Part shown: one piece after another, positions 17,801 to 49,269 of the stretch | How the letters are laid out: every line of letters begins with the position of its first letter | Numbering within the stretch: the stretch's first letter is position 1 | DNA from: a bacterium | GTDB lineage: Bacteria > Patescibacteriota > Patescibacteriia > UBA1558 > S5-K13 | Length of the DNA: 64,000 bases | Direction of reading: 5' to 3' | Assembly: GCA_029555085.1 (NCBI GenBank) | Contig: JAKPTO010000026.1 | Span: 37,217-101,216, forward strand | Position numbers and translations under genes: made by a program | The notes under the pieces: generated by a model | The model's input: the letters and a program-made list of their open reading frames with translations, nothing else | Databases searched by the model: none | Told to the model about the DNA's origin: nothing

Positions 17801-20356
17801 AGTGATAGTTGCACGACCGCCGACTGATAAGTTATTCGTTAGTGTAGTGGCACCGTTTAAAGTTATAGTATCGTCACTATTTGCATATAAAATTCTTCCC
17901 CAATCACCATCACTGGCTCCATATTTTACAAACGCAGTTCCTCCACCCACGCCATAAGAACCCATTGGTGCGGTATAACCAGCAGCAAGATGTTCATCTG
18001 ATATAACAATATTCATTTCTCCTCCATAACCATCTACAACAAAACTTGCTATTGTATTAACATTACTATCAACTACTGTTAGCGCATACTGTGGTGTTGT
18101 GGTACCGATTCCGACGTTGCCTGATCCGACATTAACTGCTATGTTATTATAATGCATTATATCGTTGTAACCGCTAATATCTACAGCCTCATAAACTACC
18201 ATTGGTGCATCTCCCGCTAAATCATATATACCAAACTCATCGTTGCTAAACATTCCACCATTACCAATATAAAAACCTCCTTTGCTATAATCGCCACTTT
18301 CAAAACTAGCAATCATATCTGTACTTGAAACATGTAAACCGCTCAGAGGATCTGTCGTCCCTATCCCAACATTTCCTGAGTTATAGTAAATATCAGATCC
18401 ATTTGTAATCCACTGAGATGATACAATTGGCGAGCCATTTATAGAAAATCCGGCTGCATCTACTATTCCGGTTGAAGCGGTGATAGTTGCGCGACCGCCG
18501 ACTGATAGATCGCCTATAAACGAAGAAGCGCCTGATTGTAATATTTTTAATACTGTACCACCATAATAATAAGCATTCTCACTAGTATCATACACGGCTA
18601 TATAAGTATCATCACCCTTATTAATTAAACCTATTTCATCAGTTATGGCGCCAGAAACCAATGCTACTGGACCATATAAACCATTAGCAATTATCTCTGA
18701 TCCAAAATCAGCAATTCCCGTTAAAGCAGTAATAGTTACCTTGCCTCCTATTGATATATCTCCGGTAAAATTAGCTCCTGATAAAAGTGCATAAGAAGTT
18801 GAAGCAGCAGTCCACACAGGATCTAATTCTGTAATTAAACTTCCAAGTGGTGAACCATTCCAATAAAGATCTCCACCTAGATTATATAATGTATCTACTG
18901 TTACAGCTGGAGTTGAAGATGCGATATTCAAACCATTATTTGTTACTACTAATCCCATTGCGGTTGTTGTTGCAAACGAAGAACTTCCAGTTACTATTAA
19001 ACTAGCAGATGAATATAAATCTGATGATAAATTTACAGGACCGTCAAAAGTATTTATTCCCGTCCATGTATTATTATCAGATAAAGACACCCCTCCCCCA
19101 TTTTGAACTATCGTAGTTCCACCACCAATAAAATTATATACGCCCCCAGTAAAAGACCCGTCCTCCCCTTTATCTCCTTTGTCTCCTTTTTCGCCAGTAT
19201 CTCCTTTTGGTCCAGCATCTCCCTTGTCTCCTTTTTCACCTTTTACCAAAATTGTTTTTTGGATAACCTGCGTATCACCATTTGCTGTATGATAATTTTG
19301 AATTATTTGGGGTTGAACTTTGTCGGTAGCCCCGAGATAAATATTTTTTATCTCCTGCGTTTCAGCTGCATCTCTTATAAATCGAACAACGCTATCCCTA
19401 AGAACTAAATTTATTGATAAAACTTTATTCGCAAATTTTTTTGATATATTCTCAGAATAATCTCTATATTTATTTAAAGAAACAAGAGAATTAATTATTT
19501 TCTGTAAAAATGTTAGCTTAGATGAAATATTGACAGACACCTCGCTTGCGCCAAGTACTCTATGAGATGGGTTATTTTCTGTATAATAATTATCTTTTTT
19601 ATTTAAAAACGCTCTTGGGTTAAAATATGAAATCCTATCAACAACAGAATGAGCTAATTCTTTATAATTATTTTTATAGCGTTTTAATAAATTAAAATTA
19701 TTAAGTTGTGAATTTCTTAAAAATTTACCAAAATTTGTTAATTTATTTTTTATGTTTGAAAATTGATATTTGTAAGCATTGGAAAATTTCTCAGAAGAAA
19801 GTGATAAAATTCTTTCTACTTTATTTTGATTTTCTCCATAAGTACCGAGAGCAGAAGGAATAAAAAATCTCATTGTCAAAATTAATAAAAAACTTATAGC
19901 TAAAAAATTTGCCAATCCAATTAATTGATTCGGAGAATGTGGTTTTGGGGATCTAAACTTTGAAGATTTTAAATTAGAATATTTTTTAGACTTATCAAAT
20001 TTAAAAAATGTAAAAACTGACAATAAAAAATTTCTAAAAATGTTTACTATATGATAAAAAGTTTTTTTAAATTTTTCTTTATTAAAAAAATGAATTTCTG
20101 CTAAAAGTATGTCTGGTAAATTTGGTTTTCTATTAAGTGAAACATCTTCATACTGAATTTGAAAATTCATCTCACTATTCTTCTCTTCATACTCTTTCAA
20201 GTAGCTTTTTTTCGTAAACCATATTCCATCAATTTTCTCTGCTTTTAATTTTCCCTGCCTCGCGCGAAGAGATAAATATTCTTGTGAATATGAACAATAC
20301 TTTGTCGCCTGTGACAAAGTAATGTATGGTTCTATTTGTTGATTTTGTTCGTCCAT
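14813..20356 (-). CDS. Giant (1847 aa) membrane-anchored fibre protein: N-terminal excisionase/MerR-like HTH, TM helix, collagen-like GXY tract, tail-fibre-like repeats, S74 intramolecular-chaperone-like domain, H-type-lectin-like domain and a Thr/Glu-rich tandem-repeat tail
   Basis: - HTH-like: YITLSQATKYCSYSQEYLSLRARQGKLKAEKIDGIWFTKKSYL
- TM helix: LIGLANFLAISFLLILTMRFF
- Collagen-like tract: GEKGDKGDAGPKGDTGEKGDKGDKGEDG
- Internal repeat present twice: LSVGGRATITASTGIVDAAGFSINGSPIVSS
- S74-like: LGFITTQVEEIAPELL...IDYESFTPVMVSAIQEQQQQINEIRAQ. Confidence 0.8.
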   Translation of the reverse strand: MDEQNQQIEPYITLSQATKYCSYSQEYLSLRARQGKLKAEKIDGIWFTKKSYLKEYEEKNSEMNFQIQYEDVSLNRKPNLPDILLAEIHFFNKEKFKKTFYHIVNIFRNFLLSVFTFFKFDKSKKYSNLKSSKFRSPKPHSPNQLIGLANFLAISFLLILTMRFFIPSALGTYGENQNKVERILSLSSEKFSNAYKYQFSNIKNKLTNFGKFLRNSQLNNFNLLKRYKNNYKELAHSVVDRISYFNPRAFLNKKDNYYTENNPSHRVLGASEVSVNISSKLTFLQKIINSLVSLNKYRDYSENISKKFANKVLSINLVLRDSVVRFIRDAAETQEIKNIYLGATDKVQPQIIQNYHTANGDTQVIQKTILVKGEKGDKGDAGPKGDTGEKGDKGDKGEDGSFTGGVYNFIGGGTTIVQNGGGVSLSDNNTWTGINTFDGPVNLSSDLYSSASLIVTGSSSFATTTAMGLVVTNNGLNIASSTPAVTVDTLYNLGGDLYWNGSPLGSLITELDPVWTAASTSYALLSGANFTGDISIGGKVTITALTGIADFGSEIIANGLYGPVALVSGAITDEIGLINKGDDTYIAVYDTSENAYYYGGTVLKILQSGASSFIGDLSVGGRATITASTGIVDAAGFSINGSPIVSSQWITNGSDIYYNSGNVGIGTTDPLSGLHVSSTDMIASFESGDYSKGGFYIGNGGMFSNDEFGIYDLAGDAPMVVYEAVDISGYNDIMHYNNIAVNVGSGNVGIGTTTPQYALTVVDSNVNTIASFVVDGYGGEMNIVISDEHLAAGYTAPMGSYGVGGGTAFVKYGASDGDWGRILYANSDDTITLNGATTLTNNLSVGGRATITASTGIVDAAGFSINGSPIVSSRWTPNAYGNGIYYNSGRVGIGTNDPQATLDVTGDVYFYDSTKTRSISFFPSSGNQEIRASGQLNIVPSSGGVLLRSGSNTSLTMRNSSNDSTILLHSRGASYFNGGNVGIGITAPSSALHVVNSTSPQLTLGYNSATSTTFGTDSSGDLTINTTGGHIVFANNNVFNIGGVSALPYNAISNSGVSTLELDDNDLYVEGTLDVKGHSYFGSALRVNGLIYTLSSFFATQPSSKIWLGHSRADLANFRAFATGNVYIDEDNAALYLGEDQDANILWNGTDLVINTGAGTLNVTGTSTMRDIVPESNLTYTLGSSDYRWTDLWAEEIHVGTSTWAIRPHSSSYAYGTLEFRDETNNVSPLTLSQSKIIADVPIELIKSATIVSDLGHVPVLKVVNTSAHPSANLFEIQSRVEYEETLFSVDYIGRTTIKNLGKEKVLGFVLQNSEGDNVFTVSSDGLVLADTGYDTPAADYAEYFYTNNTNISSGEVVCIDFANNNAISRCATSSDSNIIGIISTKPGFIGNSKEEYKNNPNYKLVALLGQIPAFVSNENGDINPGDSLTSASRQGYLMKANQGDSTVGVALESFSGDFGTINVLISRNNKSVTVNEIEKEVTTKVLEAKDENISEIQSIIDSYNIEQRFDSLNNEITNLRNQLNNSVPSSEQIVENATIDQLDGIISLNKLTDIEAVNFVWIENETQINKLGFITTQVEEIAPELLNIDESGNKSIDYESFTPVMVSAIQEQQQQINEIRAQFGMSLDALEDLVLSGALQVEGLVDLGRDTVGQAKILTGATSTAVMFEHEYRNDPVITISPRALINGGYYIDEVTKNGFVIKIENTQETDVIFDWHSFGAYKGMIFSSDGTSELISSSTEQGLIEETPIEDTTETTTEDNISSGNQTTETSIDTTQTETTTEQETPIEDTTETTIEDDISSGNQTTETSIDTTQTDTTTEQETSAEETTETTITETEVTIETIEE
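14882..15109 (-). repeat. Two tandem 114-nt (38-aa) near-identical coding repeats at the 3' end of the giant gene
   Basis: Copies at 14882-14995 and 14996-15109 encode ETPIEDTTETT(T/I)ED(N/D)ISSGNQTTETSIDTTQT(E/D)TTTEQ. Confidence 0.85.
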
Positions 20357-20759: not shown

Positions 20760-21218
20760 ATGGAAAAATTAATAATTTTGAATAAAAAAATTGACTACGA
20801 ATATGAAATCAAAGAAAAATTTGTAGCTGGATTAGTTTTGTTTGGCGATGAAGTTAAGTCAATAAAAAATTCTTCATTTGACATGAAAGATTCGTATATA
20901 AAAATTTCATCTGAGTCCGAAGTTCTTCTTCTCAATTTTAAAATTTCTCCATACAAAAAATCAAATTTAAACTTATTGAAACACAAACCCAATAGATCCA
21001 TAAAATTACTACTCAAAAAATCTGAAATTAAAAAATTAAATTCTCTTTTAAAAGAAAAATCCTACACTGCCATTCCTAAAAAAATTTTTGTAAAAAACAA
21101 TTTTATAAAAGTTGAAATTGCTGTTGTAAGGGGAAAGAAAAAATATGAAAAAAGAGAATTTATAAAAAATAAAGAAATTAAAAAAGATCTACAAAAAAAT
21201 TATAAACTTCATAGTTAA
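20760..21218 (+). CDS. smpB: SsrA-binding protein SmpB
   Basis: 152 aa. The sequence NKKIDYEYEIKEKFVAGLVLFGDEVKSIK and the basic C-terminal tail are typical of SmpB, and the gene lies next to tmRNA. Confidence 0.9.
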   Translation: MEKLIILNKKIDYEYEIKEKFVAGLVLFGDEVKSIKNSSFDMKDSYIKISSESEVLLLNFKISPYKKSNLNLLKHKPNRSIKLLLKKSEIKKLNSLLKEKSYTAIPKKIFVKNNFIKVEIAVVRGKKKYEKREFIKNKEIKKDLQKNYKLHS

Positions 21219-21521: not shown

Positions 21522-21912
21522 GGGGATGTATCAATTTGATGCATAAAAAATTTGTTCTTTGGCAAGTCAAGTTTTGCGAAACTTGTAAAAAACGCTAAAT
21601 CATAAATGTCAAATCATTTATAGAAAAAGTTAAAGTTGCATTTAGTAATCCAGCTTTCAACTTTTCAATTGCTTAATCTTTTTTAAAAATTAAGCCATCC
21701 TCTATCTTCATACTCGATGGGGATTTACGAGGGTGTTATATTTTCGAGTTATACTATGGTAATTTCCATGTGCCATAGTGAAAACTTATGGAATATATAA
21801 ATAATATTTTTCTTATTTATAGTTATTTATAGAATTTTAAAAATAAGATAAACTTGTAGATAAAGAATGAATTGTTAGGCAGACAGGGGTTCAAATCCCC
21901 TCATCTCCACCA
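21522..21912 (+). ncRNA. ssrA: tmRNA (SsrA), standard one-piece form
   Basis: The 5' GGGGATG pairs with the 3' CATCTCC-ACCA, including a G3-U70 wobble (alanine identity element). The T-arm GGGGTTCAAATCCCC lies just before the acceptor 3' strand. A candidate tag ORF runs from GCA at 21638 to TAA at 21674-21676. Confidence 0.9.
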
Positions 21913-23195: not shown

Positions 23196-23272
23196 GGAGC
23201 GGTAGTTCAGTTGGTTAGAACGCCTGCCTGTCACGCAGGAGGTCGAGGGTTCGAGTCCCTTCCGTTCCGCCA
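23196..23272 (+). tRNA. tRNA-Asp (GUC), CCA encoded
   Basis: Acceptor GGAGCGG / CCGTTCC, anticodon stem CCTGC / GCAGG with loop CTGTCAC (anticodon GTC), T-arm GAGGGTTCGAGTCCCTT, and 3' GCCA. Confidence 0.93.
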
Positions 23273-28611: not shown

Positions 28612-29508
28612 TTATTTATACATTTCATCAACCCATTCACCAATTTTTACAACTGCATCTTCACTGTCACTTCTTTTATAAACCGACAAAACCGCAACAC
28701 AAATTTTCTTTTTCATGGGAGTTATATAACCAGCTGTAACATGAAATCTTGTTTCATTCAAAAAACCAGTTTTAGCTCCAAAATAATTCTGGGGATTATT
28801 TCTTAAATCATATACAGTGTGTTTTAAATTTATTTGTCTCCCCTCTCTTGTTGTGAAAGTATATTGTGGCTTGGAAGAATACTCGCTTATGTTTTCATTT
28901 GAAAATGCATGACATGTTACTATTGCCATGTCGCGAGCACTTGTTAAATTTTTCATTGACAATCCCGATGGATCGTCAATTAATGTTTTTGTAAGTCCCC
29001 ACTCGCTTGCAATTTTTCCCATATTTTCTAAAAATTGAGTTTTTGAAATTTCTGTAATTTTTGATAATTTATTTGCAGAATTATTTGCTGAAGCAATTAA
29101 AGTCGAAGCAAAAATATCTTTTATTTTTATTCTTTCTGTTGATTTTAATTTCAGAGTTACAAAAGAATCCCTTGGTCCAACATATTGCCTAAGATCTCCT
29201 TCGCTGTCTTGCCATGTTAAATTATAAGTTTTATTCCATAATGGAAAATGTTTTACAAACTCACTTGCGGTTATTAATTTCATCAAACTTGCGCTTGGCA
29301 TCTGACGCTCTTCTTGATGAAAATATAGCGGTTTCAAAGTTTCATATTCTATAACAGCTGCAGAAATATATGGAACATCTTTTCCGGTTTTCTCTTTATA
29401 CCAATTTGTAAAATCAACATAATTATCTTTTTTCTCTAAAGCAAAACAATTTGCAGGAATTGCAACTATTAAAATAAATAAAAAAATGATTAAAAATTTA
29501 TTTCGCAT
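28612..29508 (-). CDS. D-alanyl-D-alanine carboxypeptidase (serine peptidase S11 / PBP5-like)
   Basis: 298 aa with a signal/anchor sequence, SxxK (SASLMK), SxN (ASANNS) and KTG (AKTGFL) motifs. Confidence 0.85.
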   Translation of the reverse strand: MRNKFLIIFLFILIVAIPANCFALEKKDNYVDFTNWYKEKTGKDVPYISAAVIEYETLKPLYFHQEERQMPSASLMKLITASEFVKHFPLWNKTYNLTWQDSEGDLRQYVGPRDSFVTLKLKSTERIKIKDIFASTLIASANNSANKLSKITEISKTQFLENMGKIASEWGLTKTLIDDPSGLSMKNLTSARDMAIVTCHAFSNENISEYSSKPQYTFTTREGRQINLKHTVYDLRNNPQNYFGAKTGFLNETRFHVTAGYITPMKKKICVAVLSVYKRSDSEDAVVKIGEWVDEMYK

Positions 29509-30111: not shown

Positions 30112-30148
30112 GGAAAATAAAAGCTCTCTGAAAATTTTTCAGAGAGCT
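30112..30148 (-). terminator. Rho-independent terminator downstream of the M23/CBM gene
   Basis: 13-bp inverted repeat AGCTCTCTGAAAA / TTTTCAGAGAGCT (30122-30134 and 30136-30148), followed on the minus strand by TTTATTTT. Confidence 0.75.
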
Positions 30149-30154
30149 CATGAA

Positions 30155-32746
30155 TTATTTACTAAAAACCAGTTTCTTGTCAAAAGAAAATCCGTTTACA
30201 TTTACCCGACAAATATAAACACCGCTTGAGCAAATTTTTCCTGAATCATCTTTTGAATCCCAGTTAATAGTTGCTGATTTGGATTTTGTGGGGACAAACT
30301 TTTTTACAAGTTGTCCTTTGATGTTATAAATCGAAATTTGAACTTCAGATGGTTCTTTTGTGTCTTCTATATCAAACATTAAGCTTACTGTGGAGTTAAA
30401 TGGATTTGGAAATATTTCAAATTTCTTTTTTAATAAATTCACTGTTTGACTTGGTGCGAGTATAAGTGACACATCATCAATCCAAACAGGAACATCTTGT
30501 TCTCCCAAATTCCATGAAATGCGTGCAATTCCAGAACTTGTGGCAGTAAAGCTCATTGTATAATTTTGCCAATCAGTTCCAGTGCTCACAACTTGCCATA
30601 GGCCAAAATTATTCCAGGGAGAATTTTCATTATATAACTCTACCTGGATTTGTCTTTGTGAGGTAGATTTCGCCCAGAAAGACAAAGTATAATTTTGACC
30701 CGATACAATGTTTAAATTCTGGTACAATTGAACCTCGAAGTGCAAACCATTTTGATTGGGATCAATAAATATTGAGTTATTCCCTGAATGGTAAATAGAA
30801 TTATCAATATAATAACTCGCTGTGGAATTGAGATCGCCAACCTCAAATGGTGCAAAATTTCCTGTTTCAAAACCAGGATTTATTATTAAATTATCTCCTT
30901 CTGTTTCCATATCAGATATTTTTTCAAAAACAACATTATCAAAATATTTACAACCAGCTGACTCGCCAATCATAAAATTCAAACGCGCTAATTGATCAGT
31001 TGTATTTGCTATAAAAATATACTGATATTTTTTCCAAGTTGAAGTGAGATTAATCTCTTTCCATAGACCATAATTATTCCATGGATCATTGTTGTTTTGT
31101 ATGCAAAATTTAATTCCCGATGCAGGATTGGATTTTGCCCAAAAAGAAACATTATATGACTCGCCTGATTCAATTTCAACAAGTTGCATAAGTTCTTCTT
31201 CGTAAAATAATCCGGAATCACCAATATTGATTTCTGCTTTAAAGTTTCCATCAACGCAATCACCGGATGTTATATCGAAACTTGCGCTATTTCTACTGTC
31301 ATTTAAAATCCAATAATTACAAATTCCAGAATCAAATCCACCGTCTTCGAAGTCACCACCCTGATAATCAACCATTCCACCACCAGCAAAATATTGAATA
31401 TTTTCTCCGGATTGAAATGAATTAACATCGCTATCGGAAACTTCTAAAACATTAGCAAAATTAAACCCATAGGTATTGAAGGTTGATTCGTCTATAATGA
31501 GACGACGCAATCCATTTTCTATATAATAACAAGCTGGACCTGGACCAGAAATTAATTTTCCATCCATGATTTTTTCATAGCTTACAAATGGCGCAATCTG
31601 ATAATAATTTAAAACATTTTGAGTAACTACTATATTAAAATTTGAATGATAATAGTTAATCATATAAACATTGTCAGAAAGCAATCTCAGAAGAATCTTT
31701 TGTCCAGTGTATGAAGAAGAAACTTCAATCCCTCGTTTAATAACATATCGTTCGTTCATGTTATTTACATTTTGCAATACTGTTCCGTATGGATAATCGC
31801 TTGAAGATGTAAGTTCAGATCCTTCCGCAAATTGAGATAAATATGAACTTGTTGTTGGAATCCAAACATCCGCAGAGTATCCTAATTGTTGCCAATTATT
31901 TACCCTTCGCTTCACAATTGTCGTAGAATTGTTTGACTGATAATCAAATACCCATCTCTGAGAATTCTCATCATAAACACAAGTTCCAACTTTTGGACTA
32001 ATATCAGGACCAATTGAAAATGAATTGAATTCTTCTTGACTAATTTCAACTGCATCAGACCAGTCAAATCCCCAAGTATAAAAAGGTGTCTCACTAGTAA
32101 ATCGTTGCATTTGCCTGTCACGAATCCAATAATAATTTGGAGTATTAGTTACATGAACCAATAAATCATCTGGTAGAATTCTTGGTTGTGAAACAACAAT
32201 GCCTGGGAGTGATGGCGGGTTTGATACGAAATAATGTTTATCTGGATTACAACCATTATTATATTGTTGTGTGTTGTTACTATACCAACCATAGGGATCA
32301 ATTGGTTCATTATTATAGTAAACACCAAAGTGAAGGTGAGGGTTGGTTGAATAACCAGTGTCACCCACCTTTCCTATAAATTGTCCTTGGTAAACAAATT
32401 CTCCGACAGAAACAGTTGCAGTATGGTAAAGCATGTGCGCGTATATTGTTTTGTAACCATTTCCATGGTCTATTTTCACATAATTACCATAATCCGTTCC
32501 TGTTCCATCTGGAATATCTCTTTGCACCGCAATAACCTGTCCACCATAAGCAGAAAGAATTCTTGTTCCCTCTACTGCGGAATAATCAATTCCGTAATTA
32601 TAGTTATAACTATAACTAGGTGGATATTGCCAACCAGATGAAATTATAAAATTTCCTTCAATGGGGAGTGTGAATATATGATCCACACCGAACAAATAAC
32701 CACAACACATTGTGATTATTACTAGAATTGTCATGAGAGTTTTCAT
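30155..32746 (-). CDS. Secreted M23 (LytM) metallopeptidase with two CBM4/9-like carbohydrate-binding modules and a T9SS-type (Por/FlgD-Ig-like) C-terminal sorting domain
   Basis: - Signal peptide: MKTLMTILVIITMCCGYLFG
- M23 motifs: GIDYSAVEGTRILSAYGGQV, KIDHGNGYKTIYAHM, NPHLHFGVY
- Two CBM-like modules: ...YNVSFWAKSNP... and NPGFETGNF...YTLSFWAKST...
- C-terminus: FEIFPNPFNSTVSL...ISIYNIKGQLVKKF...WDSKDDSGKICSSGVYICRV. Confidence 0.8.
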   Translation of the reverse strand: MKTLMTILVIITMCCGYLFGVDHIFTLPIEGNFIISSGWQYPPSYSYNYNYGIDYSAVEGTRILSAYGGQVIAVQRDIPDGTGTDYGNYVKIDHGNGYKTIYAHMLYHTATVSVGEFVYQGQFIGKVGDTGYSTNPHLHFGVYYNNEPIDPYGWYSNNTQQYNNGCNPDKHYFVSNPPSLPGIVVSQPRILPDDLLVHVTNTPNYYWIRDRQMQRFTSETPFYTWGFDWSDAVEISQEEFNSFSIGPDISPKVGTCVYDENSQRWVFDYQSNNSTTIVKRRVNNWQQLGYSADVWIPTTSSYLSQFAEGSELTSSSDYPYGTVLQNVNNMNERYVIKRGIEVSSSYTGQKILLRLLSDNVYMINYYHSNFNIVVTQNVLNYYQIAPFVSYEKIMDGKLISGPGPACYYIENGLRRLIIDESTFNTYGFNFANVLEVSDSDVNSFQSGENIQYFAGGGMVDYQGGDFEDGGFDSGICNYWILNDSRNSASFDITSGDCVDGNFKAEINIGDSGLFYEEELMQLVEIESGESYNVSFWAKSNPASGIKFCIQNNNDPWNNYGLWKEINLTSTWKKYQYIFIANTTDQLARLNFMIGESAGCKYFDNVVFEKISDMETEGDNLIINPGFETGNFAPFEVGDLNSTASYYIDNSIYHSGNNSIFIDPNQNGLHFEVQLYQNLNIVSGQNYTLSFWAKSTSQRQIQVELYNENSPWNNFGLWQVVSTGTDWQNYTMSFTATSSGIARISWNLGEQDVPVWIDDVSLILAPSQTVNLLKKKFEIFPNPFNSTVSLMFDIEDTKEPSEVQISIYNIKGQLVKKFVPTKSKSATINWDSKDDSGKICSSGVYICRVNVNGFSFDKKLVFSK

Positions 32747-32934
32747 TTTTACCTCCTATGAAAATTTCTCAATTTCTTTAAAAATGTTTCGAGAATAAAA
32801 AATCGCCAAAAAAATCTGATAAATCAAATTAAGTTTGGCGACCCTGATTTTGAAATTATAAAAACCCAAGTCTCTTGTTAAAATTTAACAAGAATTAATA
32901 AATCGCTTTTCCTCGCTTTTATTTAATTGTTAAT

Positions 32935-33480
32935 CTACTTATTTATTAAAAAATCTTTAAATATACCCAAACTACCCACTCTAAATAAACCTATATTTTC
33001 TACTGTTTCGCAACCAACCATCACTGGGGCATATTCGTCTCTACATGTGCTAGCTCTACAATTATCACCTGCATATTTATACTCTACAAACATATTTTGC
33101 TTTATTAGTTGCTCTGTTAATGCAAACGGGAAAACACTACTAACAGAATAAATACCTCTTGGAACCTCTAATCTGTAACCTTTTTTATTTCTATATTTAG
33201 AATTAATTACTTGATTAGGTGTGCAATAATAATTATTTGTTTCTATATTTTTCGCGCAAACCAAAGATCCATCTGGAACAATTTCTGATGGATAGCTTAA
33301 TTCTCCCTCAATTGCCCCCATACAATTTTCTGATTGTATTTTTGTTGCTTCTCTTTCATCTGAAATACTCTGTGTATTGTTTATAATATTTTCTTGATTT
33401 TTACTATCATAAATTACAATATATATAACAAGTGATATAAATAGTATTATTGAAATAATTATTAATATTTTTTTCCACAT
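32935..33480 (-). CDS. Hypothetical membrane-anchored / secreted Cys-containing protein
   Basis: 181 aa with an N-terminal TM helix (ILIIISIILFISLVIYIVIY) and an extracytoplasmic domain with several Cys residues. Confidence 0.5.
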   Translation of the reverse strand: MWKKILIIISIILFISLVIYIVIYDSKNQENIINNTQSISDEREATKIQSENCMGAIEGELSYPSEIVPDGSLVCAKNIETNNYYCTPNQVINSKYRNKKGYRLEVPRGIYSVSSVFPFALTEQLIKQNMFVEYKYAGDNCRASTCRDEYAPVMVGCETVENIGLFRVGSLGIFKDFLINK

Positions 33481-33634: not shown

Positions 33635-36600
33635 TTATTTTTTATATAAAGTGGAAACAAATCTTTGCATTCTGTCATTCAATACATCTAAAGCAATTCT
33701 TGTACTTTCTGGTGCGTTTTTTGGTATGCTCTTTAATGTGAGTTCCCAAAATTTTATCTCAAAATTATTTAACTTACTACTACCTGTTCTTTCCAGCTTT
33801 ATATCGCTTAATAATTTAAATGCTTTATCGTGTACAATGTCTTTATTAGCACTCTCCGTAATTATTCTATATAATTCAGTACCTCGTTCTCGGCTATAAA
33901 AAAATGTTCCAACTGAACTAACATCTGATGTCTGTTTAATAATGGAACCATTTTCATCAAATACTTGTTTAAGTGTTCCGCTTCTTCCCGCCTCCTTAAA
34001 AGTAACGAGCTTTGTATAATCATCGAGCCATTTCTCTGTTATTGTTCCTGTATTTGTTTTTATAATTTCTATATTTGGCTCGGAAATCAATTCTTGAAAA
34101 TTATTCTCTGTAATTTGCTCTAAGCCGGGACTTTGTGGATCAAGATCTGCATAATATTCCCCATGGTCTTTTTGAATTTCCAACACCCGATTATTACCAA
34201 CATTCGTTTCAAATTTAACTGGAATATTGTCTTCAACATCTTTCAATGCCTCTTCCAACTCAGAAAATGTATTAACTCTTTTAACTCCTAGTATCTCTGT
34301 TTGATTTTGAGCTATAGGCACACGATCTAATATATCTTCGACAGGTGTCCGTCCTGATATACCTTTGGTAGGCACATGATCTGGCTCAATAGTCAAATTT
34401 TGAACTGAGGATACTTGGTCTGATATATCTTCTATATTTGACTCAGAAATCAATTCTTGAAAATTATTCTCTGTAATTTGCTCTAAACCAGGGAGATTAG
34501 GATTAAAGTCTGTGTAATATTCTCCATTGTCCTCTATAATCCGTACAACATTACCACCAATTTCTACATCAGCCGAAGCACCTGCCTCTTTAAACTGAAA
34601 TACTTCTTTCAAATCAGAAAAATCCCTAACCACTGGAACCTCTGATGTTTCTATAGGTACATTAGTCAATGTATCTGGGGTGACTTCTATACTTTCTGTA
34701 GGTACATGATCTAACATATCTTCAGTGGGTACATGATCTGGTTTAATAACTGGGATTTCTGTATTACCATTATTAAACTCATCTTGCAACCTCGCTATTT
34801 GAAAATTTAACTCCTCTCCAGTATTTTGCTGTTGTGAAAGTAATTCTCGAGTTGCATTTAGTTCCTCAGATATCTTCGCTTGTATATTGGATGGAATATT
34901 TGGATCATCTAGCATTTCTTCTAATCTGGTAATTGATAATTTTGACTTTATTATATCATCATTTAACTCAAAATATTTACTTTGTAGCTCTTCTATTTGC
35001 TCAGGATAATTTGACTTAACTATATCTTCTACGGGTAGCACTTCTCTTACATTTGTTGGTCTGACAATTTCTGAAACATTAGGACCATGTTTGGGCTTAA
35101 TGACGCCCATTACATTATCTACATAATGTTTGTAAAAACTTTCATAAGACTTGGGTTTGACAAAGGCAAAAACCTCGTTAGTTTCTGGATCAACGACAAC
35201 TCTTGCTCCCGGCGCAACAACATTTGCATCAAAATTTTTAAGAATCAATGGTTCGCCATTAGGTCCAGAAGTAACAAGTGTCATTTTTGAACCACGAGGC
35301 ATGCTTATACCCAAAGTTTCAGAAACACTAGAGCCCTTAGCTACTGGAACGCCTTGATCTGCCAACTCTTGAATACGTTGAGGGTTCAAACCCTTAATAT
35401 CTTGAAAATTAGATACATCTGATTTTTTTGGAGAAAAACTTTGTGATGCCTCATTTATATCATCCGCTCGACTTGTTGAGATAACCTGATCTTTTTTACC
35501 AAAAACAGAGTTCTTCAAATTCTCAAAAGACTTTCCTAATCTCTCCATTCTTGAAACTATATCAGCATAACTTACAAAATTATCTTTCATGTTTTCCAAT
35601 ACATTACCCTGAGTAAATGTTTTGGTAAAACATTGTACCATGTTATCCACACTTGCACCAGATGTTTGTATTCCTGATAAAGCTTGCGTTCCCATACCAA
35701 GAGCCATTAATAATTCCCCCCAAGCTCTCATCATGGTAGTTTTTTTATCAAAACCTTTTAATTTTCTAACATCACTATGTTTTTTTAATTTATCATTTTC
35801 TACATAAAAACTTGATTCATATCGTTTTCCAGATAATCCATAATATGTTTCTAAAAACATTGTTTTAAATGCATCTCCAAGATATTGATGTGCTTTCATT
35901 TTTTCGCCAACCTTATTCCAGGAATATTCCTTTTGATATTTCAATGCTGATTTATCTAATTTTCCACCAAATGCAAATATTCCATACATAGCACCTCGAA
36001 GTCCAGCCGCACCTATCCCGCCACCAAAAACCATAGCCGTATTAAGTGCATCTTTTACAAGTATACTTCCATTTACTGTTCCTTGTATATAATCTTGCAA
36101 AATATAATCTATTTTTTTTGACCTTTGTTTTCTTAAATCATTTTTTGATTCCAAATTCGTAAGTAGAACTTTGTTTAATCTATTTCTCATTGTCATCTGA
36201 TCATGATCAGAAATAATATACAATAACTTTTCTTTATCTGTTAATGAACCTTCGTTAAACTTTTTTTCTATTTCTTGTCTTTTTTCTTTTGGTAAATCAT
36301 AATAATTCTGAGATCTGGCATTCTTTATCATTTCATTATATTGCATTGCTTTTTCTTTTACATCATCTACAGAAATTTTTTCATTTTTTATAAAATTTTC
36401 TCTAATTTTATTATTCTCCATTGAAAGAGTTTTTATTTTACGCTCTAATTCTTCTCTTTCTGTTTCATCTTTTGTGTTTTTATATATCTCTACATATCTA
36501 GATATTGCAGCAACTCTTCTTTTGTAATTATCATCTTGGTAAAGCTTCTGAAATTTTTCCTTATTAGAAGAAATCAACTCTGCTAAATCGCTTGTTTTCT

Positions 36601-38758
36601 TTTCTGCCTCAACCCTATCTTTCTTTGTTTCACTTTTTTGATCAAAATATTTATACACATCTGTTCTCTTGCCAAGAGCAAAATTAATTTTTCCTCCACT
36701 TATTTTATCAAGTCCATGCGCAAGTCCAGCGCCAATCCAATCACCAATGGCTTTAACACCAAACATTGAACCGATAATATTATATATTCCCTTACCTGTT
36801 GCTGCGCATAAGGCCCTCTTTTCTTCTTTTTCTTCTGGTGTTTTTGGTTTCTTAAAAATCAAATCAAAAGTTTTCTTAACCCTATCCTTAAATTTAACTT
36901 TTATCTGTTCTTCTTTTAACTCTTCATTGATAATATGTTCTTCCGGCGTATTAGATTGAATTTCTTTTTCTGATTCAAAATTATTGTAAGTAGATGTCCA
37001 TTTTATTTCTTGTCCCCATTCTGGACTGGTATGGGTAGATGTCCATTTTGCTTCCTGTCTCTCTCCTTGACTCGTATTAGTTTCCCATTGTTGTTCTTGA
37101 TTAGTATTAGATATTGTCTCTGGTTTTATTTCTTTTATTCCAAGTACATTGCTTATATATGTATTTGTATTTTCAAGAAGACTTGGTGCTATTTTTGTCA
37201 CAAAATTTACAATAAAAGACTCATTACCCTCCCTACCCTCATCTTCTACTCTATCCTTAGCTTCTAAAAATTTTCTTACCTCAATAATCTGATTATCGCT
37301 TAGTCTACTCAACTTGTACTTTAAAATATCAACTCCGGTATTTTCTAATTCTAAATGTTTATTAAAAAATTTTTCCTCTGTTTTCGGCAAATCGTCTTCA
37401 AAGACTTGTTTTTCTTTAATAACCTCCTCTTCTGATTTTTCAAAATTCTCTGATTTTGAAGTCTCTTCTTTTTCTGATTTAATCTTTTCTTCTGAATTTC
37501 CTAACAACTCTTTAACTTTATCTCTTAAACCGTATGCTCTAGTAACGAAATTAATATGATAGCTTTCGTGTCTCACTTGATCAATTATCTGCTTCAATTC
37601 CTCTGGACTATATTTTTCTTTGGTACCATCTATTGTCCCAATTTCTTCTATGGCAGAAAATAATTCCTCAAAATTTTTAGCATTGCTAATTTTTGCTTTT
37701 TGATTTTCTAGTAACTCTACAACCTTATCTCTTAAACCGTATGTTCTAGTAACATAAGTATTGCGAAGATCTCCATTCCTTACTTGGTTAATGATCTGCT
37801 TCAATTCCTCTGGACTATATTTTTCTTTGGTACCATCTATTGTCCCAATTTCTTCTATGGCAGAAAATAATTCCTCAAAATTTTTAGCATTGCTAATTTT
37901 TGCTTTCCTATCTTCTTCTGTTTCTATTGTATTTTTTTTATTTTTCCCCTCAATTTCTTTTTTAGATTCACTTTCTCTCATCATTTCAATGAGTTTTTTT
38001 GCATGCATTTTAGCCCATTGAATTTGTCCTTCATTATTTTCATAATCTAAACCTGCTTCTGGGTTAGGATGATTATCTTTTTCCCTATTTTCTATATCAT
38101 GTTGTTTCCAACTCATAAGAATTTTATACGCAATAGCTGTTTCTAAATCATTTGTAGTATCTCTATACATGTCATAATGTTTGTAATAATCATTAAAAAT
38201 GCCTTTATAATCTATACCCGTTTCCATATCTGGATTTTCAAAAAAATTCTTATACACTTTTTCAACTTCAGATTCCATATATTTATAATCTTCTGGATTG
38301 TCTGGTAATTCTGTTTTTATAACTCTCTCTGGAACCTGATCTAAAACATTGAGATCTTTTTCTGATTCAAATTTTTCATCTATTTTTTCTTGTCCATCTT
38401 CGGGGATTTCTTTCGCATACTCGTCTGATGCTGATATAATTTCTTTTGCCCTTTTTATTCTCTTATTAATCTCAGGGACTAATTTTCTTAAATCTTCTAA
38501 ATAATTAAAAAAAAGAGAACGATCTTCATCAAATGTTTCTTGGTCACTCGATATAAGTATATATTGATCTGCACTAAATGATATATCCGACCTAATTTCT
38601 TCGAGTAATTCTTCACCCCTATTTAATATTTTCTCTAAAGCTTGTTTCTTAAATCTTATGAATCCATCTGGGTTATTATTATCTATAAATTCTCTGTATT
38701 GCTCATTCTTATCAACTAAATTTTTTAAATTCTCTGTAGGTTGTTTTATTTTATCCAT
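33635..38758 (-). CDS. Giant (1707 aa) orphan protein: acidic coiled-coil-rich N-terminal third, internal Gly-rich hydrophobic segments, and duplicated modules
   Basis: A single uninterrupted ORF with no signal peptide. Hydrophobic Gly-rich segments include ALCAATGKGIYNIIGSMFGVKAIGDWIGAGLAHGL and NTAMVFGGGIGAAGLRGAMYGIFAFGG. The 69-aa module KAKISNAKNFEELFSAIEEIGTIDGTKEKYSPEELKQII is duplicated, as is a ~121-aa-period module containing PGLEQITENNFQELISE. Confidence 0.8.
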   Translation of the reverse strand: MDKIKQPTENLKNLVDKNEQYREFIDNNNPDGFIRFKKQALEKILNRGEELLEEIRSDISFSADQYILISSDQETFDEDRSLFFNYLEDLRKLVPEINKRIKRAKEIISASDEYAKEIPEDGQEKIDEKFESEKDLNVLDQVPERVIKTELPDNPEDYKYMESEVEKVYKNFFENPDMETGIDYKGIFNDYYKHYDMYRDTTNDLETAIAYKILMSWKQHDIENREKDNHPNPEAGLDYENNEGQIQWAKMHAKKLIEMMRESESKKEIEGKNKKNTIETEEDRKAKISNAKNFEELFSAIEEIGTIDGTKEKYSPEELKQIINQVRNGDLRNTYVTRTYGLRDKVVELLENQKAKISNAKNFEELFSAIEEIGTIDGTKEKYSPEELKQIIDQVRHESYHINFVTRAYGLRDKVKELLGNSEEKIKSEKEETSKSENFEKSEEEVIKEKQVFEDDLPKTEEKFFNKHLELENTGVDILKYKLSRLSDNQIIEVRKFLEAKDRVEDEGREGNESFIVNFVTKIAPSLLENTNTYISNVLGIKEIKPETISNTNQEQQWETNTSQGERQEAKWTSTHTSPEWGQEIKWTSTYNNFESEKEIQSNTPEEHIINEELKEEQIKVKFKDRVKKTFDLIFKKPKTPEEKEEKRALCAATGKGIYNIIGSMFGVKAIGDWIGAGLAHGLDKISGGKINFALGKRTDVYKYFDQKSETKKDRVEAEKKTSDLAELISSNKEKFQKLYQDDNYKRRVAAISRYVEIYKNTKDETEREELERKIKTLSMENNKIRENFIKNEKISVDDVKEKAMQYNEMIKNARSQNYYDLPKEKRQEIEKKFNEGSLTDKEKLLYIISDHDQMTMRNRLNKVLLTNLESKNDLRKQRSKKIDYILQDYIQGTVNGSILVKDALNTAMVFGGGIGAAGLRGAMYGIFAFGGKLDKSALKYQKEYSWNKVGEKMKAHQYLGDAFKTMFLETYYGLSGKRYESSFYVENDKLKKHSDVRKLKGFDKKTTMMRAWGELLMALGMGTQALSGIQTSGASVDNMVQCFTKTFTQGNVLENMKDNFVSYADIVSRMERLGKSFENLKNSVFGKKDQVISTSRADDINEASQSFSPKKSDVSNFQDIKGLNPQRIQELADQGVPVAKGSSVSETLGISMPRGSKMTLVTSGPNGEPLILKNFDANVVAPGARVVVDPETNEVFAFVKPKSYESFYKHYVDNVMGVIKPKHGPNVSEIVRPTNVREVLPVEDIVKSNYPEQIEELQSKYFELNDDIIKSKLSITRLEEMLDDPNIPSNIQAKISEELNATRELLSQQQNTGEELNFQIARLQDEFNNGNTEIPVIKPDHVPTEDMLDHVPTESIEVTPDTLTNVPIETSEVPVVRDFSDLKEVFQFKEAGASADVEIGGNVVRIIEDNGEYYTDFNPNLPGLEQITENNFQELISESNIEDISDQVSSVQNLTIEPDHVPTKGISGRTPVEDILDRVPIAQNQTEILGVKRVNTFSELEEALKDVEDNIPVKFETNVGNNRVLEIQKDHGEYYADLDPQSPGLEQITENNFQELISEPNIEIIKTNTGTITEKWLDDYTKLVTFKEAGRSGTLKQVFDENGSIIKQTSDVSSVGTFFYSRERGTELYRIITESANKDIVHDKAFKLLSDIKLERTGSSKLNNFEIKFWELTLKSIPKNAPESTRIALDVLNDRMQRFVSTLYKK
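37587..37906 (-). repeat. Intragenic direct repeat: 113 nt perfectly identical, 207-nt period
   Basis: 37587-37699 is identical to 37794-37906 by base-by-base comparison. The flanks are diverged but related (CTTATCTCTTAAACCGTATG...). Confidence 0.9.
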
Positions 38759-47996: not shown

Positions 47997-48614
47997 TTAC
48001 TTCAAAATTGTACCTGTTTTTATATACCAGATATAAATATCTAACTCTCCCTGACTCATATCCAATTTTTTGCATATTTTATGCATTTTTTTCTCTATTT
48101 CAATATATCTCTTTGGTGTTAATGTTTTATATTCAGCTATTATTCCGTTATCAATCAAACTACTAATAATATGCCTATCTAAAATAGCATAATCAAAAAA
48201 ACCAACATTTCTTAAAAAATGCGACGATTCCTTCATCCCAAGACCTTTTATATTTTTCAAAAGCCACATTCTTTTATCATTTTCTTCTAATAAAATATCT
48301 TTGATGTTTTTATACTTTCTTGCCAAAACAATACGATTCGCGCGTTGAGGCCAAAATCTATGACCTGATTTTTTCAAAAATCTTGCTAATTTTTCTTCAT
48401 TCCAATTTAAAAAACCATTCGGAGTTAATTTTTTTTGAATTTCAATTGACTCTTTTGCTTTCCAATTTGAAGTTAATAAACAATAACAAAGTTCAAAAAA
48501 CCATTCATTGTTTGATTTTTTGTTTAAAATTAAAAAATCTTTTAATCTTCTATCAATTTTATTTTTGATTTTTGATTTTCTTATTTCTTGAATTTTGTTT
48601 ATTAATTTTTTCAT
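47997..48614 (-). CDS. ogg: Archaeal-type 8-oxoguanine DNA glycosylase / N-glycosylase-DNA lyase (Ogg2-like)
   Basis: Motifs FFELCYCLLTSNWKA and GLGMKESSHFLRNVGFFDYAILDRHI. The start is more likely M25 (48614) than the ORF-track start at 48686. Confidence 0.8.
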   Translation of the reverse strand: MKKLINKIQEIRKSKIKNKIDRRLKDFLILNKKSNNEWFFELCYCLLTSNWKAKESIEIQKKLTPNGFLNWNEEKLARFLKKSGHRFWPQRANRIVLARKYKNIKDILLEENDKRMWLLKNIKGLGMKESSHFLRNVGFFDYAILDRHIISSLIDNGIIAEYKTLTPKRYIEIEKKMHKICKKLDMSQGELDIYIWYIKTGTILK

Positions 48615-49269
48615 AATGTAAACAATAATTTTTAATTTTACAAATATTACATTTTGGACCAATTGGCCTACAAATATTTTGACCAAACAATACTAATACA
48701 AAATTTATTTTTTTCCAGTACAACTTATCTAAATTTTTTCTTAAAAACATTTCGGTTTCATACGGAGTCCTTGTGTTTAAATATCCAATTCTATTTAATA
48801 TTCTATGAACATGCGTATCCACACAAATTGCTGGTTTTTTTAAAACTGTAGAAATATATAAATTTGCTGTTTTTCTCCCAATTCCTGGAAGTTTTATAAG
48901 TTCATCGATAGTTTCCGGAATTTTAGAATTGAAATCCTTATTTAAAACAAAACATAATTTTTTTAAATTTTTTGCTTTTGTTTTATAAAAACCAACTGGA
49001 TAAATCAATTTTTGTATTTGTAGATTTGTTAATTTTTGCAAATCTTTACAGTTGCTTACTTTTTCAAATAATCTTAATGATGACTCAAGAGTTGTTTTGT
49101 CTTTTGTTCGTGACGATAAAATTATTGAAATTAAAATCTGAAAATTGTTAAATTTTTTAGAATACAAAAAATCAACAGCAGGAAGTTCAAATTCACTAAC
49201 CTGCTGTGACAATAAATCAAGTATTTTTTCTATTTTTACTTTGATTTCCATAATCCATGAAGATTGCAA
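48559..49269 (-). CDS. nth: Endonuclease III
   Basis: HhH-GPD motif LPGIGRKTANL and a 4Fe-4S cluster loop C-X6-C-X2-C-X5-C (CRPIGPKCNICKIKNYC). Confidence 0.9.
   Translation of the reverse strand: MQSSWIMEIKVKIEKILDLLSQQVSEFELPAVDFLYSKKFNNFQILISIILSSRTKDKTTLESSLRLFEKVSNCKDLQKLTNLQIQKLIYPVGFYKTKAKNLKKLCFVLNKDFNSKIPETIDELIKLPGIGRKTANLYISTVLKKPAICVDTHVHRILNRIGYLNTRTPYETEMFLRKNLDKLYWKKINFVLVLFGQNICRPIGPKCNICKIKNYCLHYEKINKQNSRNKKIKNQK

What the first reader, a model, noticed from the sequence alone, without database searches (positions are those of the whole stretch)
30155..32760. M23 peptidoglycan hydrolase with CBM modules and a T9SS-type C-terminal sorting domain in a genome context that looks OM-less; likely horizontally acquired
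**Seen in sequence.** The C-terminal ~85 aa (FPNPFNSTVSL...IYNIKGQLVKKF...SGVYICRV...) match the Por/T9SS type A (FlgD-Ig-like) sorting-domain pattern. The gene has a perfect AGGAGG 5 nt upstream of its ATG (32752-32757). None of the other start regions I inspected (ileS, rbr, recG, dac, macA, both giant genes) has an SD. The region is visibly less AT-rich, with five spurious ORFs of at least 60 aa in other frames within this one gene. Strong terminators and orphan genes flank it.

**Established knowledge.** T9SS CTDs direct export across the outer membrane in Bacteroidota and allied phyla.

**Inference.** The gene may have been acquired from a T9SS-bearing lineage, possibly the host, and be used as a cell-wall-attacking enzyme. 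Alternatively, the CTD may have been repurposed.
Basis: partly seen in the sequence, partly recalled or inferred. Interest (0 to 1): 0.68.

Follow-up and report, generated by a model that had tools for sequence, protein, structure and literature searches.

The report
Patescibacterial wall hydrolase with T9SS-type tail
This is a real, secreted cell-wall-cutting enzyme inherited vertically within a lineage of ultra-small Patescibacteria, and it keeps a C-terminal "type IX secretion" tail although such bacteria are thought to have no outer membrane or type IX system, so the tail probably has another job.

Summary
The ORF (30155-32746, minus strand, 863 aa) is real. Its parts are a signal peptide, an M23 peptidase, EccB/PlyCB-like repeats, two CBM_4_9 modules and a canonical T9SS type-A CTD. 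The CTD passes the curated HMM cut-offs, and its AF2 model best matches solved PorU, RemA and PorZ CTDs. It is the only SD-led gene start among 44 ORFs and is conserved in all orthologues.

Recent horizontal acquisition is refuted. About 22 full-length orthologues (45-80% identity) occupy the same syntenic slot (LigA-GatCA-DsbA-Lgt-giant gene-orphan-M23-S11-MacB-L20/L35/IF3-SmpB) in Patescibacteria genomes. The small GC/GC3 excess recurs in every orthologue and tracks each genome's own composition. IleS places the genome in Patescibacteria.

The [CBM_4_9]n-CTD cassette is typical of FCB-group T9SS cargo, so an ancient domain acquisition is plausible. The CTD is under purifying selection, and similar tails occur in other Patescibacteria, including a complete 1.08-Mb genome.

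The best reading is a highly translated extracellular murein endopeptidase whose CTD now serves as a binding or anchoring module. In this protein the first Zn-ligand His is Asn (N50), so its activity is uncertain. T9SS absence could not be tested genome-wide.

The parts
30155..32746 (-). CDS, 863 aa: signal peptide, M23, EccB/PlyCB-like repeats, 2x CBM_4_9, T9SS type-A CTD
   Evidence: The exact protein is found on at least 21 contigs.
32751..32757 (-). Shine-Dalgarno AGGAGGT, 4 nt (AGGAGG: 5 nt) upstream of the ATG. It is the only SD-led gene start in the window, and the GGAGG core is conserved upstream of all orthologues.
32687..32746 (-). N-terminal Sec-type signal peptide (residues 1-20, MKTLMTILVIITMCCGYLFG). 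The Cys residues are not conserved, so it is probably not a lipobox. The mature N-terminus begins at the conserved (D)DHxFTLP.
   Evidence: Hydropathy, and this is the only hydrophobic segment. Family alignment. No SignalP run.
32279..32683 (-). M23 (LytM-type) metallopeptidase domain, residues 22-156. D54, H104, H137 and H139 are conserved.
   Evidence: Pfam 93 bits. PDB M23 matches such as Csd3 4rny at E 1.5e-19.
32597..32599 (-). Codon for N50, where canonical M23 enzymes have the first Zn-ligand His of HxxxD. Asn occurs only in this protein and its two closest relatives (P0002, P0003); the other 19 aligned orthologues have His.
31382..32278 (-). Conserved middle region (residues 157-455) with no Pfam hit. 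The AF2 model shows repeated beta/alpha modules resembling EccB repeat domains and the cell-wall-binding domains of phage endolysins. It is a putative peptidoglycan-binding region.
30911..31381 (-). CBM_4_9 module 1 (about residues 456-612; approximate boundaries)
   Evidence: Pfam reports two CBM_4_9 stretches. Family alignment.
30497..30910 (-). CBM_4_9 module 2 (about residues 613-750; best Pfam stretch 619-738)
30158..30418 (-). T9SS type-A (Por_Secre_tail / FlgD-Ig-like) C-terminal domain, residues 777-863. Invariant positions in the family are PNPF, IxN..G, W, GxY, K858 and the terminal K863.
   Evidence: HMMs above cut-off. AF2 pLDDT 89.9, beta sandwich. Foldseek top hits are PorU, RemA, PorZ, mirolase and NucA CTDs. 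Purifying selection.
30121..30149 (-). Intrinsic terminator-like hairpin (13-bp stem) plus T-run, immediately after the stop codon
32935..33480 (-). Upstream 181-aa membrane-anchored, Cys-rich protein of unknown function. It is a conserved neighbour in L004, L006 and L008. It is not homologous to the small ORFs upstream of other patescibacterial CTD genes.
28612..29508 (-). Downstream S11 D-Ala-D-Ala carboxypeptidase, a syntenic neighbour in most orthologous loci (peptidoglycan-maturation context)

Best explanation
Shown. The gene encodes a Sec-exported, multi-domain murein endopeptidase that is vertically inherited in a Komeilibacteria-related lineage of Patescibacteria. It is a monocistronic-looking unit with its own conserved SD in a genome that otherwise hardly uses SD, and it has a strong terminator. 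It lies in a fixed chromosomal slot beside a DD-carboxypeptidase.

Inferred mechanism. After Sec export and signal-peptide cleavage, the M23 domain cuts peptide cross-links of peptidoglycan. The EccB/PlyCB-like repeats and the two CBM_4_9 modules target the enzyme to wall or surface glycans. This 'catalytic domain plus targeting modules' design is the one used by lysostaphin, zoocin A and phage endolysins. I therefore slightly favour a foreign (host or neighbour) cell wall as substrate over the cell's own wall.

Origin and role of the tail. The C-terminal [CBM_4_9]2-CTD cassette is of the kind carried by T9SS cargo in FCB-group bacteria. It was most likely fused to an M23 enzyme before this clade diversified. 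Patescibacteria are thought to lack an outer membrane and a T9SS, so the CTD cannot act here as an outer-membrane export signal. It is retained under purifying selection, most likely as a stable Ig-like beta sandwich used for surface retention or ligand binding.

Caveat. In this genome and its two nearest relatives the first Zn ligand is Asn (N50), so catalysis may be weakened.
For: Architecture and thresholds. M23 homology to solved enzymes.

Vertical descent: 22-member family with the same architecture. Strict synteny in independent assemblies down to 45% identity, including a 952-kb contig. IleS identities of 65-72% to the same genomes, against 46% for this protein.

Lineage: all named IleS hits are Patescibacteria. 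Window content is typical for the phylum (T4P, T4SS pilin, TraG/VirB4-like ATPase) and has no OM, LPS or T9SS genes.

Composition: the offset is shared by all orthologues.

CTD: fold matches PorU, RemA and PorZ CTDs. It has 12 invariant motif positions and dN/dS of about 0.1-0.5.

Cassette: found on GH5, glucoamylase and KSB1 proteins and in other Patescibacteria, including the complete genome CP060223.1.

Middle region: similar to EccB and endolysin CBDs.

Literature: T9SS is restricted to FCB phyla (PMC11285876). Patescibacteria are proposed to lack an OM (PMC12102498).
Against: Absence of T9SS and OM genes was shown only for 64 kb plus about 20-kb flanks of related genomes, not for a whole genome.

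A CTD that keeps every canonical motif is what one would expect if a recognition machinery still existed.

No binding, localisation or activity data exist.

N50 replaces a Zn ligand, so the 'hydrolase' may be impaired in this organism.

Synteny with an S11 carboxypeptidase fits a housekeeping autolysin as well as a host-directed one.

Structural matches of the middle region are weak (Z no higher than 6.8, global TM 0.17).

dS is near saturation, so the dN/dS values are rough.
Confidence: 0.6

Rival explanations
1. Recent horizontal acquisition of the whole gene from a T9SS-bearing lineage, possibly the host.
For: The CTD profile scores Cloacimonadota and other FCB tails as highly as it scores family members. 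The gene has the highest GC3 of 44 ORFs and the only SD.
Against: Orthologues sit at the same syntenic site in at least 9 genomes that diverge to 45% identity. The GC offset is shared by all orthologues and tracks each genome's own GC. The SD is conserved in all of them. No non-patescibacterial full-length homologue was found. There are no viral copies.
Confidence: 0.04
2. The CTD is still a true sorting signal. On this view the clade possesses an unrecognised CTD-dependent sorting or attachment pathway, such as a PorU-like sortase acting on the wall or S-layer, or a cryptic outer layer.
For: All canonical CTD motifs and the terminal Lys are invariant across the family, and the CTD is under purifying selection. 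CTD-bearing proteins recur in several patescibacterial lineages, including a closed genome.
Against: No second CTD protein and no T9SS-like gene is present in the window or in the flanks of the 9 related genomes. There is no conserved partner gene next to CTD genes. The literature reports T9SS genes only in FCB phyla.
Confidence: 0.1
3. Host-cargo mimicry. The epibiont displays a T9SS-type CTD to dock onto surface-exposed T9SS components (PorV, SprA, or the PorU-PorZ attachment complex) of an FCB host, bringing a lytic enzyme to the host envelope.
For: The CTD closely resembles those of Cloacimonadota and other FCB bacteria. The enzyme plus targeting-module design resembles exolysins. Patescibacteria are largely episymbionts that are proposed to damage host envelopes (PMC11665869).
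Against: This is purely inferential. CTD similarity may only reflect closeness to the family consensus, because outsiders (30-44% identity) are as close to the window CTD as its own distant orthologues (26-35%). The host is unknown. T9SS recognises CTDs from the periplasmic side.
Confidence: 0.06
4. Housekeeping autolysin. The enzyme remodels the bacterium's own peptidoglycan (growth or division) together with the adjacent S11 carboxypeptidase, and the extra modules only keep it on the cell's own wall.
For: The gene is universally present at a fixed locus next to a DD-carboxypeptidase in most genomes. Reduced genomes still need at least one endopeptidase. The middle region resembles wall-binding modules.
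Against: It has an unusually large, multi-module, exolysin-like architecture with two CBM_4_9 modules. It evolves faster than housekeeping genes (46% against 65-72% for IleS). The S11 neighbour is absent in L002. A Zn-ligand loss in one subclade would be surprising for an essential enzyme.
Confidence: 0.25
5. In this particular genome the M23 domain is catalytically dead (N50), and the protein acts only as a binding protein or adhesin, or as a hydrolase activator like EnvC, NlpD or B. subtilis SpoIIQ.
For: N50 aligns with the Zn-binding His in three solved M23 structures and in 19 of 22 family members.
Against: The other four catalytic or ligand residues (D54, H104, H137, H139) remain invariant, whereas known degenerate LytM factors usually lose several. 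M23 dN/dS is about 0.15 against close relatives. Asn can ligate Zn.
Confidence: 0.15
6. Assembly or binning artefact: a chimeric contig joining an FCB gene to a patescibacterial backbone.
For: None beyond the unexpected domain.
Against: The exact protein occurs on at least 21 contigs from different sources. The same gene order was recovered in independent assemblies from ENA, JGI, NCBI and Logan.
Confidence: 0.01

Closest known systems
T9SS cargo proteins with type-A CTD (TIGR04183 / PF18962), e.g. P. gingivalis RgpB, PorU and PorZ, F. johnsoniae RemA, and FCB-group glycoside hydrolases ending in [CBM]n-CTD
   Same: It has an N-terminal signal peptide. The CTD lies at the extreme C-terminus and scores above the curated cut-offs. 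It has the same beta-sandwich fold and the same motifs (PNPF, GxY, terminal K). The same CBM_4_9-CTD cassette is found on GH5, glucoamylase and KSB1 proteins.
   Different: The host lineage is Patescibacteria, which is proposed to be monoderm and lies outside the phyla known to carry a T9SS. No T9SS genes and no other CTD proteins are present in the available sequence. The catalytic head is a murein endopeptidase rather than a protease or glycosidase for external substrates.
Secreted M23 bacteriolysins with targeting domains (lysostaphin M23+SH3b, zoocin A, LytM) and M23 murein endopeptidases (MepM, ShyA, Csd3)
   Same: It shares the M23 fold, with an HxH motif and a catalytic His, and it is a secreted enzyme with a catalytic domain followed by wall-targeting modules.
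   Different: The first Zn-ligand His is replaced by Asn in this protein. The targeting part is much larger (EccB/PlyCB-like repeats plus 2 CBM_4_9 plus CTD). There is no SH3b or LysM domain.
EccB (ESX / type VII secretion) repeat domains and PlyCB / Lys170 / LysIME-EF1 endolysin cell-wall-binding domains
Other patescibacterial CTD proteins: Kuenenbacteria P0037 (M23+CBM96+fn3+CTD), P0388 (M23+PEGA+fn3+CBM+BACON+CTD), Nomurabacteria P0516 (CBM_4_9+FlgD_ig)
   Same: They belong to the same phylum, have the same kind of tail, are often M23-headed, and L022 also has an SD.
   Different: They have different middle modules and different genomic neighbourhoods, and share only 30% identity or less. 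They are not orthologues.

Membership tests
T9SS cargo (type-A CTD) | C-terminal domain matching TIGR04183 / PF18962 above the curated threshold, at the extreme C-terminus | tested here: met
   PF18962 scores 34.7 bits (GA 27) over residues 778-860 of 863. TIGR04183 scores 37.4 bits (cut-off 23).
T9SS cargo (type-A CTD) | Ig-like beta-sandwich fold like solved CTDs | tested here: met
   AF2 pLDDT 89.9, seven strands. Foldseek top hits are the CTDs of PorU 6za2, RemA 8gl6_D, PorZ 5m11, mirolase 8qb1 and NucA 8glk_D.
T9SS cargo (type-A CTD) | N-terminal Sec signal peptide | tested here: met
   There is a single hydrophobic N-terminal segment (residues 1-20), conserved in type across the family. 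Judged by inspection only; no SignalP run.
T9SS cargo (type-A CTD) | The organism encodes the T9SS core (PorK/L/M/N, SprA/Sov, PorV, PorU) and has an outer membrane | not testable with these tools
   Whole genomes could not be fetched. None of these genes is present in the 64-kb window or in flanks of about 20 kb in 9 related genomes. The literature reports T9SS genes as absent outside FCB phyla, and an OM is proposed to be absent in Patescibacteria.
T9SS cargo (type-A CTD) | CTD cleaved by PorU, with cargo attached to A-LPS or released | not testable with these tools
   Needs proteomics or biochemistry.
Peptidase M23 (LytM-type metalloendopeptidase) | PF01551 domain above the gathering score | tested here: met
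   93.3 bits (GA 28.7). PDB M23 hits down to E 1.5e-19.
Peptidase M23 (LytM-type metalloendopeptidase) | HxxxD zinc-binding motif | tested here: not met
   D54 is present, but the His position is N50 (NYGID). The same is true in P0002 and P0003, while the other 19 of 22 aligned family members have His.
Peptidase M23 (LytM-type metalloendopeptidase) | HxH motif and the additional catalytic His | tested here: met
   H137-L-H139 and H104 are invariant in the family.
CBM_4_9 carbohydrate-binding module | PF02018 above the gathering score | tested here: met
   87.4 bits (GA 25.9), two stretches. Ligand specificity is not testable.
EccB / PlyCB-like wall-binding repeats | Structural similarity of the repeat unit | tested here: inconclusive
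Recently transferred gene / genomic island | Atypical composition relative to the host genome | tested here: not met
   z_GC 1.55 and z_GC3 2.3 in the window. A similar mild offset (z 0.6-2.7) occurs in all 9 genomes and follows each genome's own GC.
Recently transferred gene / genomic island | Patchy presence at the locus among relatives, with flanking mobility genes | tested here: not met
   The gene is present at the same syntenic site in all related loci retrieved. No integrase or transposase is adjacent, and there is no viral copy.

The most novel reading that the evidence does not exclude
A canonical T9SS type-A sorting domain is kept under purifying selection on secreted cell-wall hydrolases in several lineages of Patescibacteria, which are thought to have neither an outer membrane nor a T9SS. 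That would mean the CTD has a second, T9SS-independent biological role. One option is an unknown CTD-dependent surface-attachment pathway in these monoderm ultra-small bacteria. The other is mimicry of host (FCB) T9SS cargo, used to dock a lytic enzyme on the host envelope.
Probability: 0.15. Interest if true: 0.75.

Novelty: new variant of a known kind. Interest (0 to 1): 0.42.

Why it matters
T9SS CTDs are treated as diagnostic of type IX secretion in FCB bacteria. A conserved, selected CTD on an abundant-looking secreted murein hydrolase of Patescibacteria shows that a CTD hit does not by itself imply a T9SS. It also offers a concrete, testable handle on two open questions: how episymbiotic ultra-small bacteria display or deliver wall-degrading enzymes, and whether CTD beta sandwiches have functions beyond export. 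More practically, the finding corrects an HGT call. The gene is a stable, lineage-typical component and could serve as a marker for this clade.

Tried and rejected
1. Recent HGT: rejected by synteny and by the compositional offset shared across orthologues.

2. A second CTD protein nearby: a family-specific CTD HMM run against all stop-to-stop ORFs of the window and 17 loci hit only the orthologues.

3. A conserved 'partner' gene for the CTD. The ORFs of about 200 aa upstream of CTD genes looked like a pattern but fall into unrelated groups (window/L004/L006/L008; L020/L022; L002 and L021 each different).

4. Phage origin: no relative in viral contigs.

5. Donor identification from the CTD alone: Cloacimonadota tails score highest, but outsiders are as similar to the window CTD as its own distant orthologues are. 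The signal may therefore just be closeness to the consensus.

6. Internal sequence repeats in the middle region: self-BLAST found none. Two segments (residues ~219-249 and ~420-450) share 12 of 31 residues by eye and have the same predicted E-E-E-H-E-H pattern.

7. DGR next to the reverse transcriptase at 53210-54427: no template/variable repeats.

8. Literature: seven searches found no paper discussing T9SS-type CTDs in CPR/Patescibacteria.

9. The AFDB50 fold library was unavailable.

10. MAG titles reading 'uncultured Gammaproteobacteria' for several orthologue-bearing genomes were disregarded as placeholder labels. IleS, synteny and other MAG labels all point to Patescibacteria.
Full report
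**Observation**

The ORF at 30155..32746 on the minus strand encodes 863 aa. Pfam finds Peptidase_M23 (residues 49-151, 93 bits), two CBM_4_9 stretches (87 bits) and Por_Secre_tail (residues 778-860, 34.7 bits against a gathering score of 27). NCBIfam TIGR04183 'T9SS type A sorting domain' scores 37.4 bits against a cut-off of 23.

AGGAGG lies at 32752-32757, 5 nt before the ATG, exactly as reported. Among the 44 ORFs of at least 150 aa it is the only start with more than a 4-5-nt partial SD. A scan that did not depend on start-codon choice showed that every other SD-plus-start combination lies inside a long ORF.

The five nested off-frame ORFs exist. Their density (1.93/kb) is only marginally above other genes (1.75, 1.56).

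The gene is GC-richer than average, but it is not an outlier. Its GC is 0.338 against 0.284 +/- 0.035, and its GC3 is 0.233 against 0.178 +/- 0.024. One giant gene has GC 0.342, and some 1-kb bins reach 0.39.

A 13-bp-stem terminator follows the stop codon at 30121-30149. The upstream terminator lies beyond the 181-aa ORF.

**Lineage and inheritance**

The exact protein occurs on at least 21 contigs. A database search returns about 22 full-length homologues at 45-80% identity, all with the M23+CBM+CTD architecture. After these, scores drop abruptly to M23-only matches.

Six homologue contexts were fetched by protein identity and nine by a genome-collection scan. All show the same gene order: LigA, GatC, GatA, DsbA, Lgt, a small ORF, a giant ORF (1478-1935 aa), an ORF of about 200 aa, this gene, usually an S11 DD-carboxypeptidase, two MacB permeases, ABC ATPase, MFP, L20, L35, IF3, SmpB. 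L002, which lies on a 952-kb contig, has no giant ORF at this position and no S11 neighbour.

The window's IleS has only Patescibacteria among its named top-120 hits: Komeilibacteria, Portnoybacteria, Falkowbacteria and 'Patescibacteria group'. It is 65-72% identical to the IleS of genomes whose M23 orthologue is 46% identical. That is the pattern expected for vertical descent of a faster-evolving surface protein.

The rest of the window is typical of the phylum: type IV pilins and prepilin peptidase, a T4SS-pilin protein, a TraG/VirB4-like ATPase, rubrerythrin, RadA and RecG. It contains no outer-membrane, LPS or T9SS gene.

The mild GC/GC3 excess recurs in all nine genomes examined (z 0.6-2.7) and follows each genome's own base composition. 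The GGAGG core upstream of the start is conserved in every orthologue. No relative exists in the viral collection.

**Anatomy**

- **N-terminus.** Residues 1-20 form the only hydrophobic segment. The mature protein starts at the family-invariant (D)DHxFTLP.
- **M23 domain.** It aligns with solved M23 enzymes (Csd3, TagE and others). D54, H104, H137 and H139 are invariant. The first Zn-ligand His of HxxxD is Asn (N50) in this protein and in its two closest relatives only.
- **CBM_4_9 modules.** Two follow the middle region.
- **CTD (residues 777-863).** It models at pLDDT 89.9 as a seven-strand sandwich. Its best solved matches are the CTDs of PorU, RemA (bound in the T9SS translocon), PorZ, mirolase and NucA, followed by FlgD. 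Twelve positions are invariant in the family: PNPF, IxN..G, W, GxY, K858 and the terminal K863. dN/dS is about 0.1-0.5, though dS is near saturation.

**Origin of the tail**

A profile of the family's CTDs scores tails from Cloacimonadota, Calditrichaeota and 'FCB group' bacteria at 100-108 bits. That is as high as the family's own members score (98-121 bits).

An exhaustive phmmer search with residues 455-863 finds end-to-end matches at the C-termini of a GH5 cellulase, a glucoamylase, a CARDB protein, a LamG protein and a KSB1 BACON/CBM60 protein. These are classic FCB T9SS cargo architectures.

The same search also hits other Patescibacteria proteins:
- a distant 873-aa M23+CBM+CTD protein;
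- a 1223-aa M23+PEGA+fn3+CBM+BACON+CTD protein in a patescibacterial neighbourhood (FtsW, L25, pilin, PrmC, RF1);
- a 470-aa CBM+FlgD_ig protein on the complete 1.08-Mb chromosome CP060223.1 of a Ca. Nomurabacteria bacterium.

A Kuenenbacteria M23+CBM96+fn3+CTD protein was seen earlier.

So the [CBM]n-CTD cassette is an FCB-type module that has been joined to M23 heads in several patescibacterial lineages. An ancient capture is plausible. The donor cannot be named from an 85-residue domain, because its nearest outsiders (30-44% identity) are no further from the window CTD than its own distant orthologues (26-35%).

**Mechanism**

[quoted passage not shown] It also states that Patescibacteria are proposed to lack an outer membrane (PMC12102498). 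I found no paper describing T9SS-type CTDs in CPR/Patescibacteria.

Given this, the CTD cannot be doing its canonical job here unless the clade hides a recognition system. Within the sequence I could reach there is no second CTD protein, no T9SS gene, and no conserved partner next to CTD genes.

I therefore favour (0.6) an exapted Ig-like module for surface retention or ligand binding, sitting on a Sec-secreted, SD-boosted murein endopeptidase. The head-plus-targeting design and the fast evolution lean towards a foreign (host or neighbour) wall as substrate. The fixed position beside a DD-carboxypeptidase keeps a housekeeping autolysin role alive (0.25). The N50 substitution means activity in this particular organism needs testing. 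A hidden sorting pathway (0.1) or host-cargo mimicry (0.06) would be the interesting outcomes.

The reduced use of SD in parts of the CPR is documented: the anti-SD motif was detected in only 48% of Parcubacteria (PMC9297842). That makes the conserved SD on this one gene a noteworthy sign of special translational demand.

**Verdict**

The observations are confirmed.

The feature is a new variant of known kinds, a T9SS-type tail on an M23 wall hydrolase in a phylum where that tail should have no machinery. It is annotated automatically in databases but, as far as I could find, not discussed in the literature.

The decisive missing test is a whole-genome search for T9SS and OM genes and a per-genome CTD census, which these tools could not perform.

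Noticed in passing
window 32597-32599 (codon N50 of the M23 gene): The first Zn-ligand His of the M23 HxxxD motif is Asn in this protein and its two closest relatives (P0002, P0003). The other 19 aligned orthologues keep His. This may mean weakened catalysis in one young subclade.
   Followed up: partly
whole window; SD at 32751-32757: The genome is essentially SD-less: 43 of 44 ORF starts have A/T-rich leaders with no SD. This single gene carries a perfect SD whose GGAGG core is conserved in all orthologues. The 16S rRNA is not in the window, so the anti-SD could not be checked.
   Followed up: partly
window 33635-38758 (-) and 14813-20356 (-): There are two giant ORFs (1707 and 1847 aa) with no significant Pfam domain, apart from a weak collagen-like stretch in the second. 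The first occupies a conserved syntenic slot two genes upstream of the M23 gene, but its length varies from 1478 to 1935 aa between genomes.
   Followed up: partly
window 32935-33480 (-): A 181-aa membrane-anchored, Cys-rich protein of unknown function lies immediately upstream. It is conserved (34-53% identity) in L004, L006 and L008. It is replaced by an unrelated ORF in L002, and it is unrelated to the small ORFs upstream of other patescibacterial CTD genes.
   Followed up: yes
window 53210-54427 (-): This is a reverse-transcriptase ORF (RVT_1). It scores 125 bits against the group II intron RT/maturase model, well below the 300-bit cut-off. It overlaps the end of an ABC-transporter ORF (51520-53235). 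No DGR-type template/variable repeats were found within 7 kb.
   Followed up: partly
window 21522-21912 (+), 20760-21218 (+), 23196-23269 (+): tmRNA (91 bits) lies next to SmpB, and there is one tRNA. The SmpB/tmRNA-IF3-L35-L20 block is part of the conserved synteny.
   Followed up: no
window 58158-59570 (-) and 63114-63962 (-): A 470-aa protein carries a T4SS_pilin domain, and a TraG/VirB4-like P-loop ORF lies near the window end (63114-63962). These are probably part of the monoderm-type T4SS described for Patescibacteria.
   Followed up: no
L009, L012, L013, L015, L016, L017 (record titles): Several MAGs carrying the orthologue are titled 'uncultured Gammaproteobacteria bacterium' (binchicken / SRP co-assemblies). 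Their synteny, IleS relatives and other MAG labels indicate Patescibacteria, so these look like placeholder or wrong taxonomic labels in the public records.
   Followed up: partly
window 47997-48686 (-) and 48559-49269 (-): The longest-ORF calls for Ogg-like and Nth-like DNA glycosylases overlap by 128 nt. The true start of the downstream gene is probably an internal codon.
   Followed up: no
L011 and L019 (MAG GCA_028703545.1): The orthologue in this MAG is split across two contigs: L011 ends at residue ~820, and L019 starts with the 118-aa CTD fragment. PGAP therefore named the fragment alone 'T9SS type A sorting domain-containing protein [Patescibacteria group bacterium]'.
   Followed up: yes
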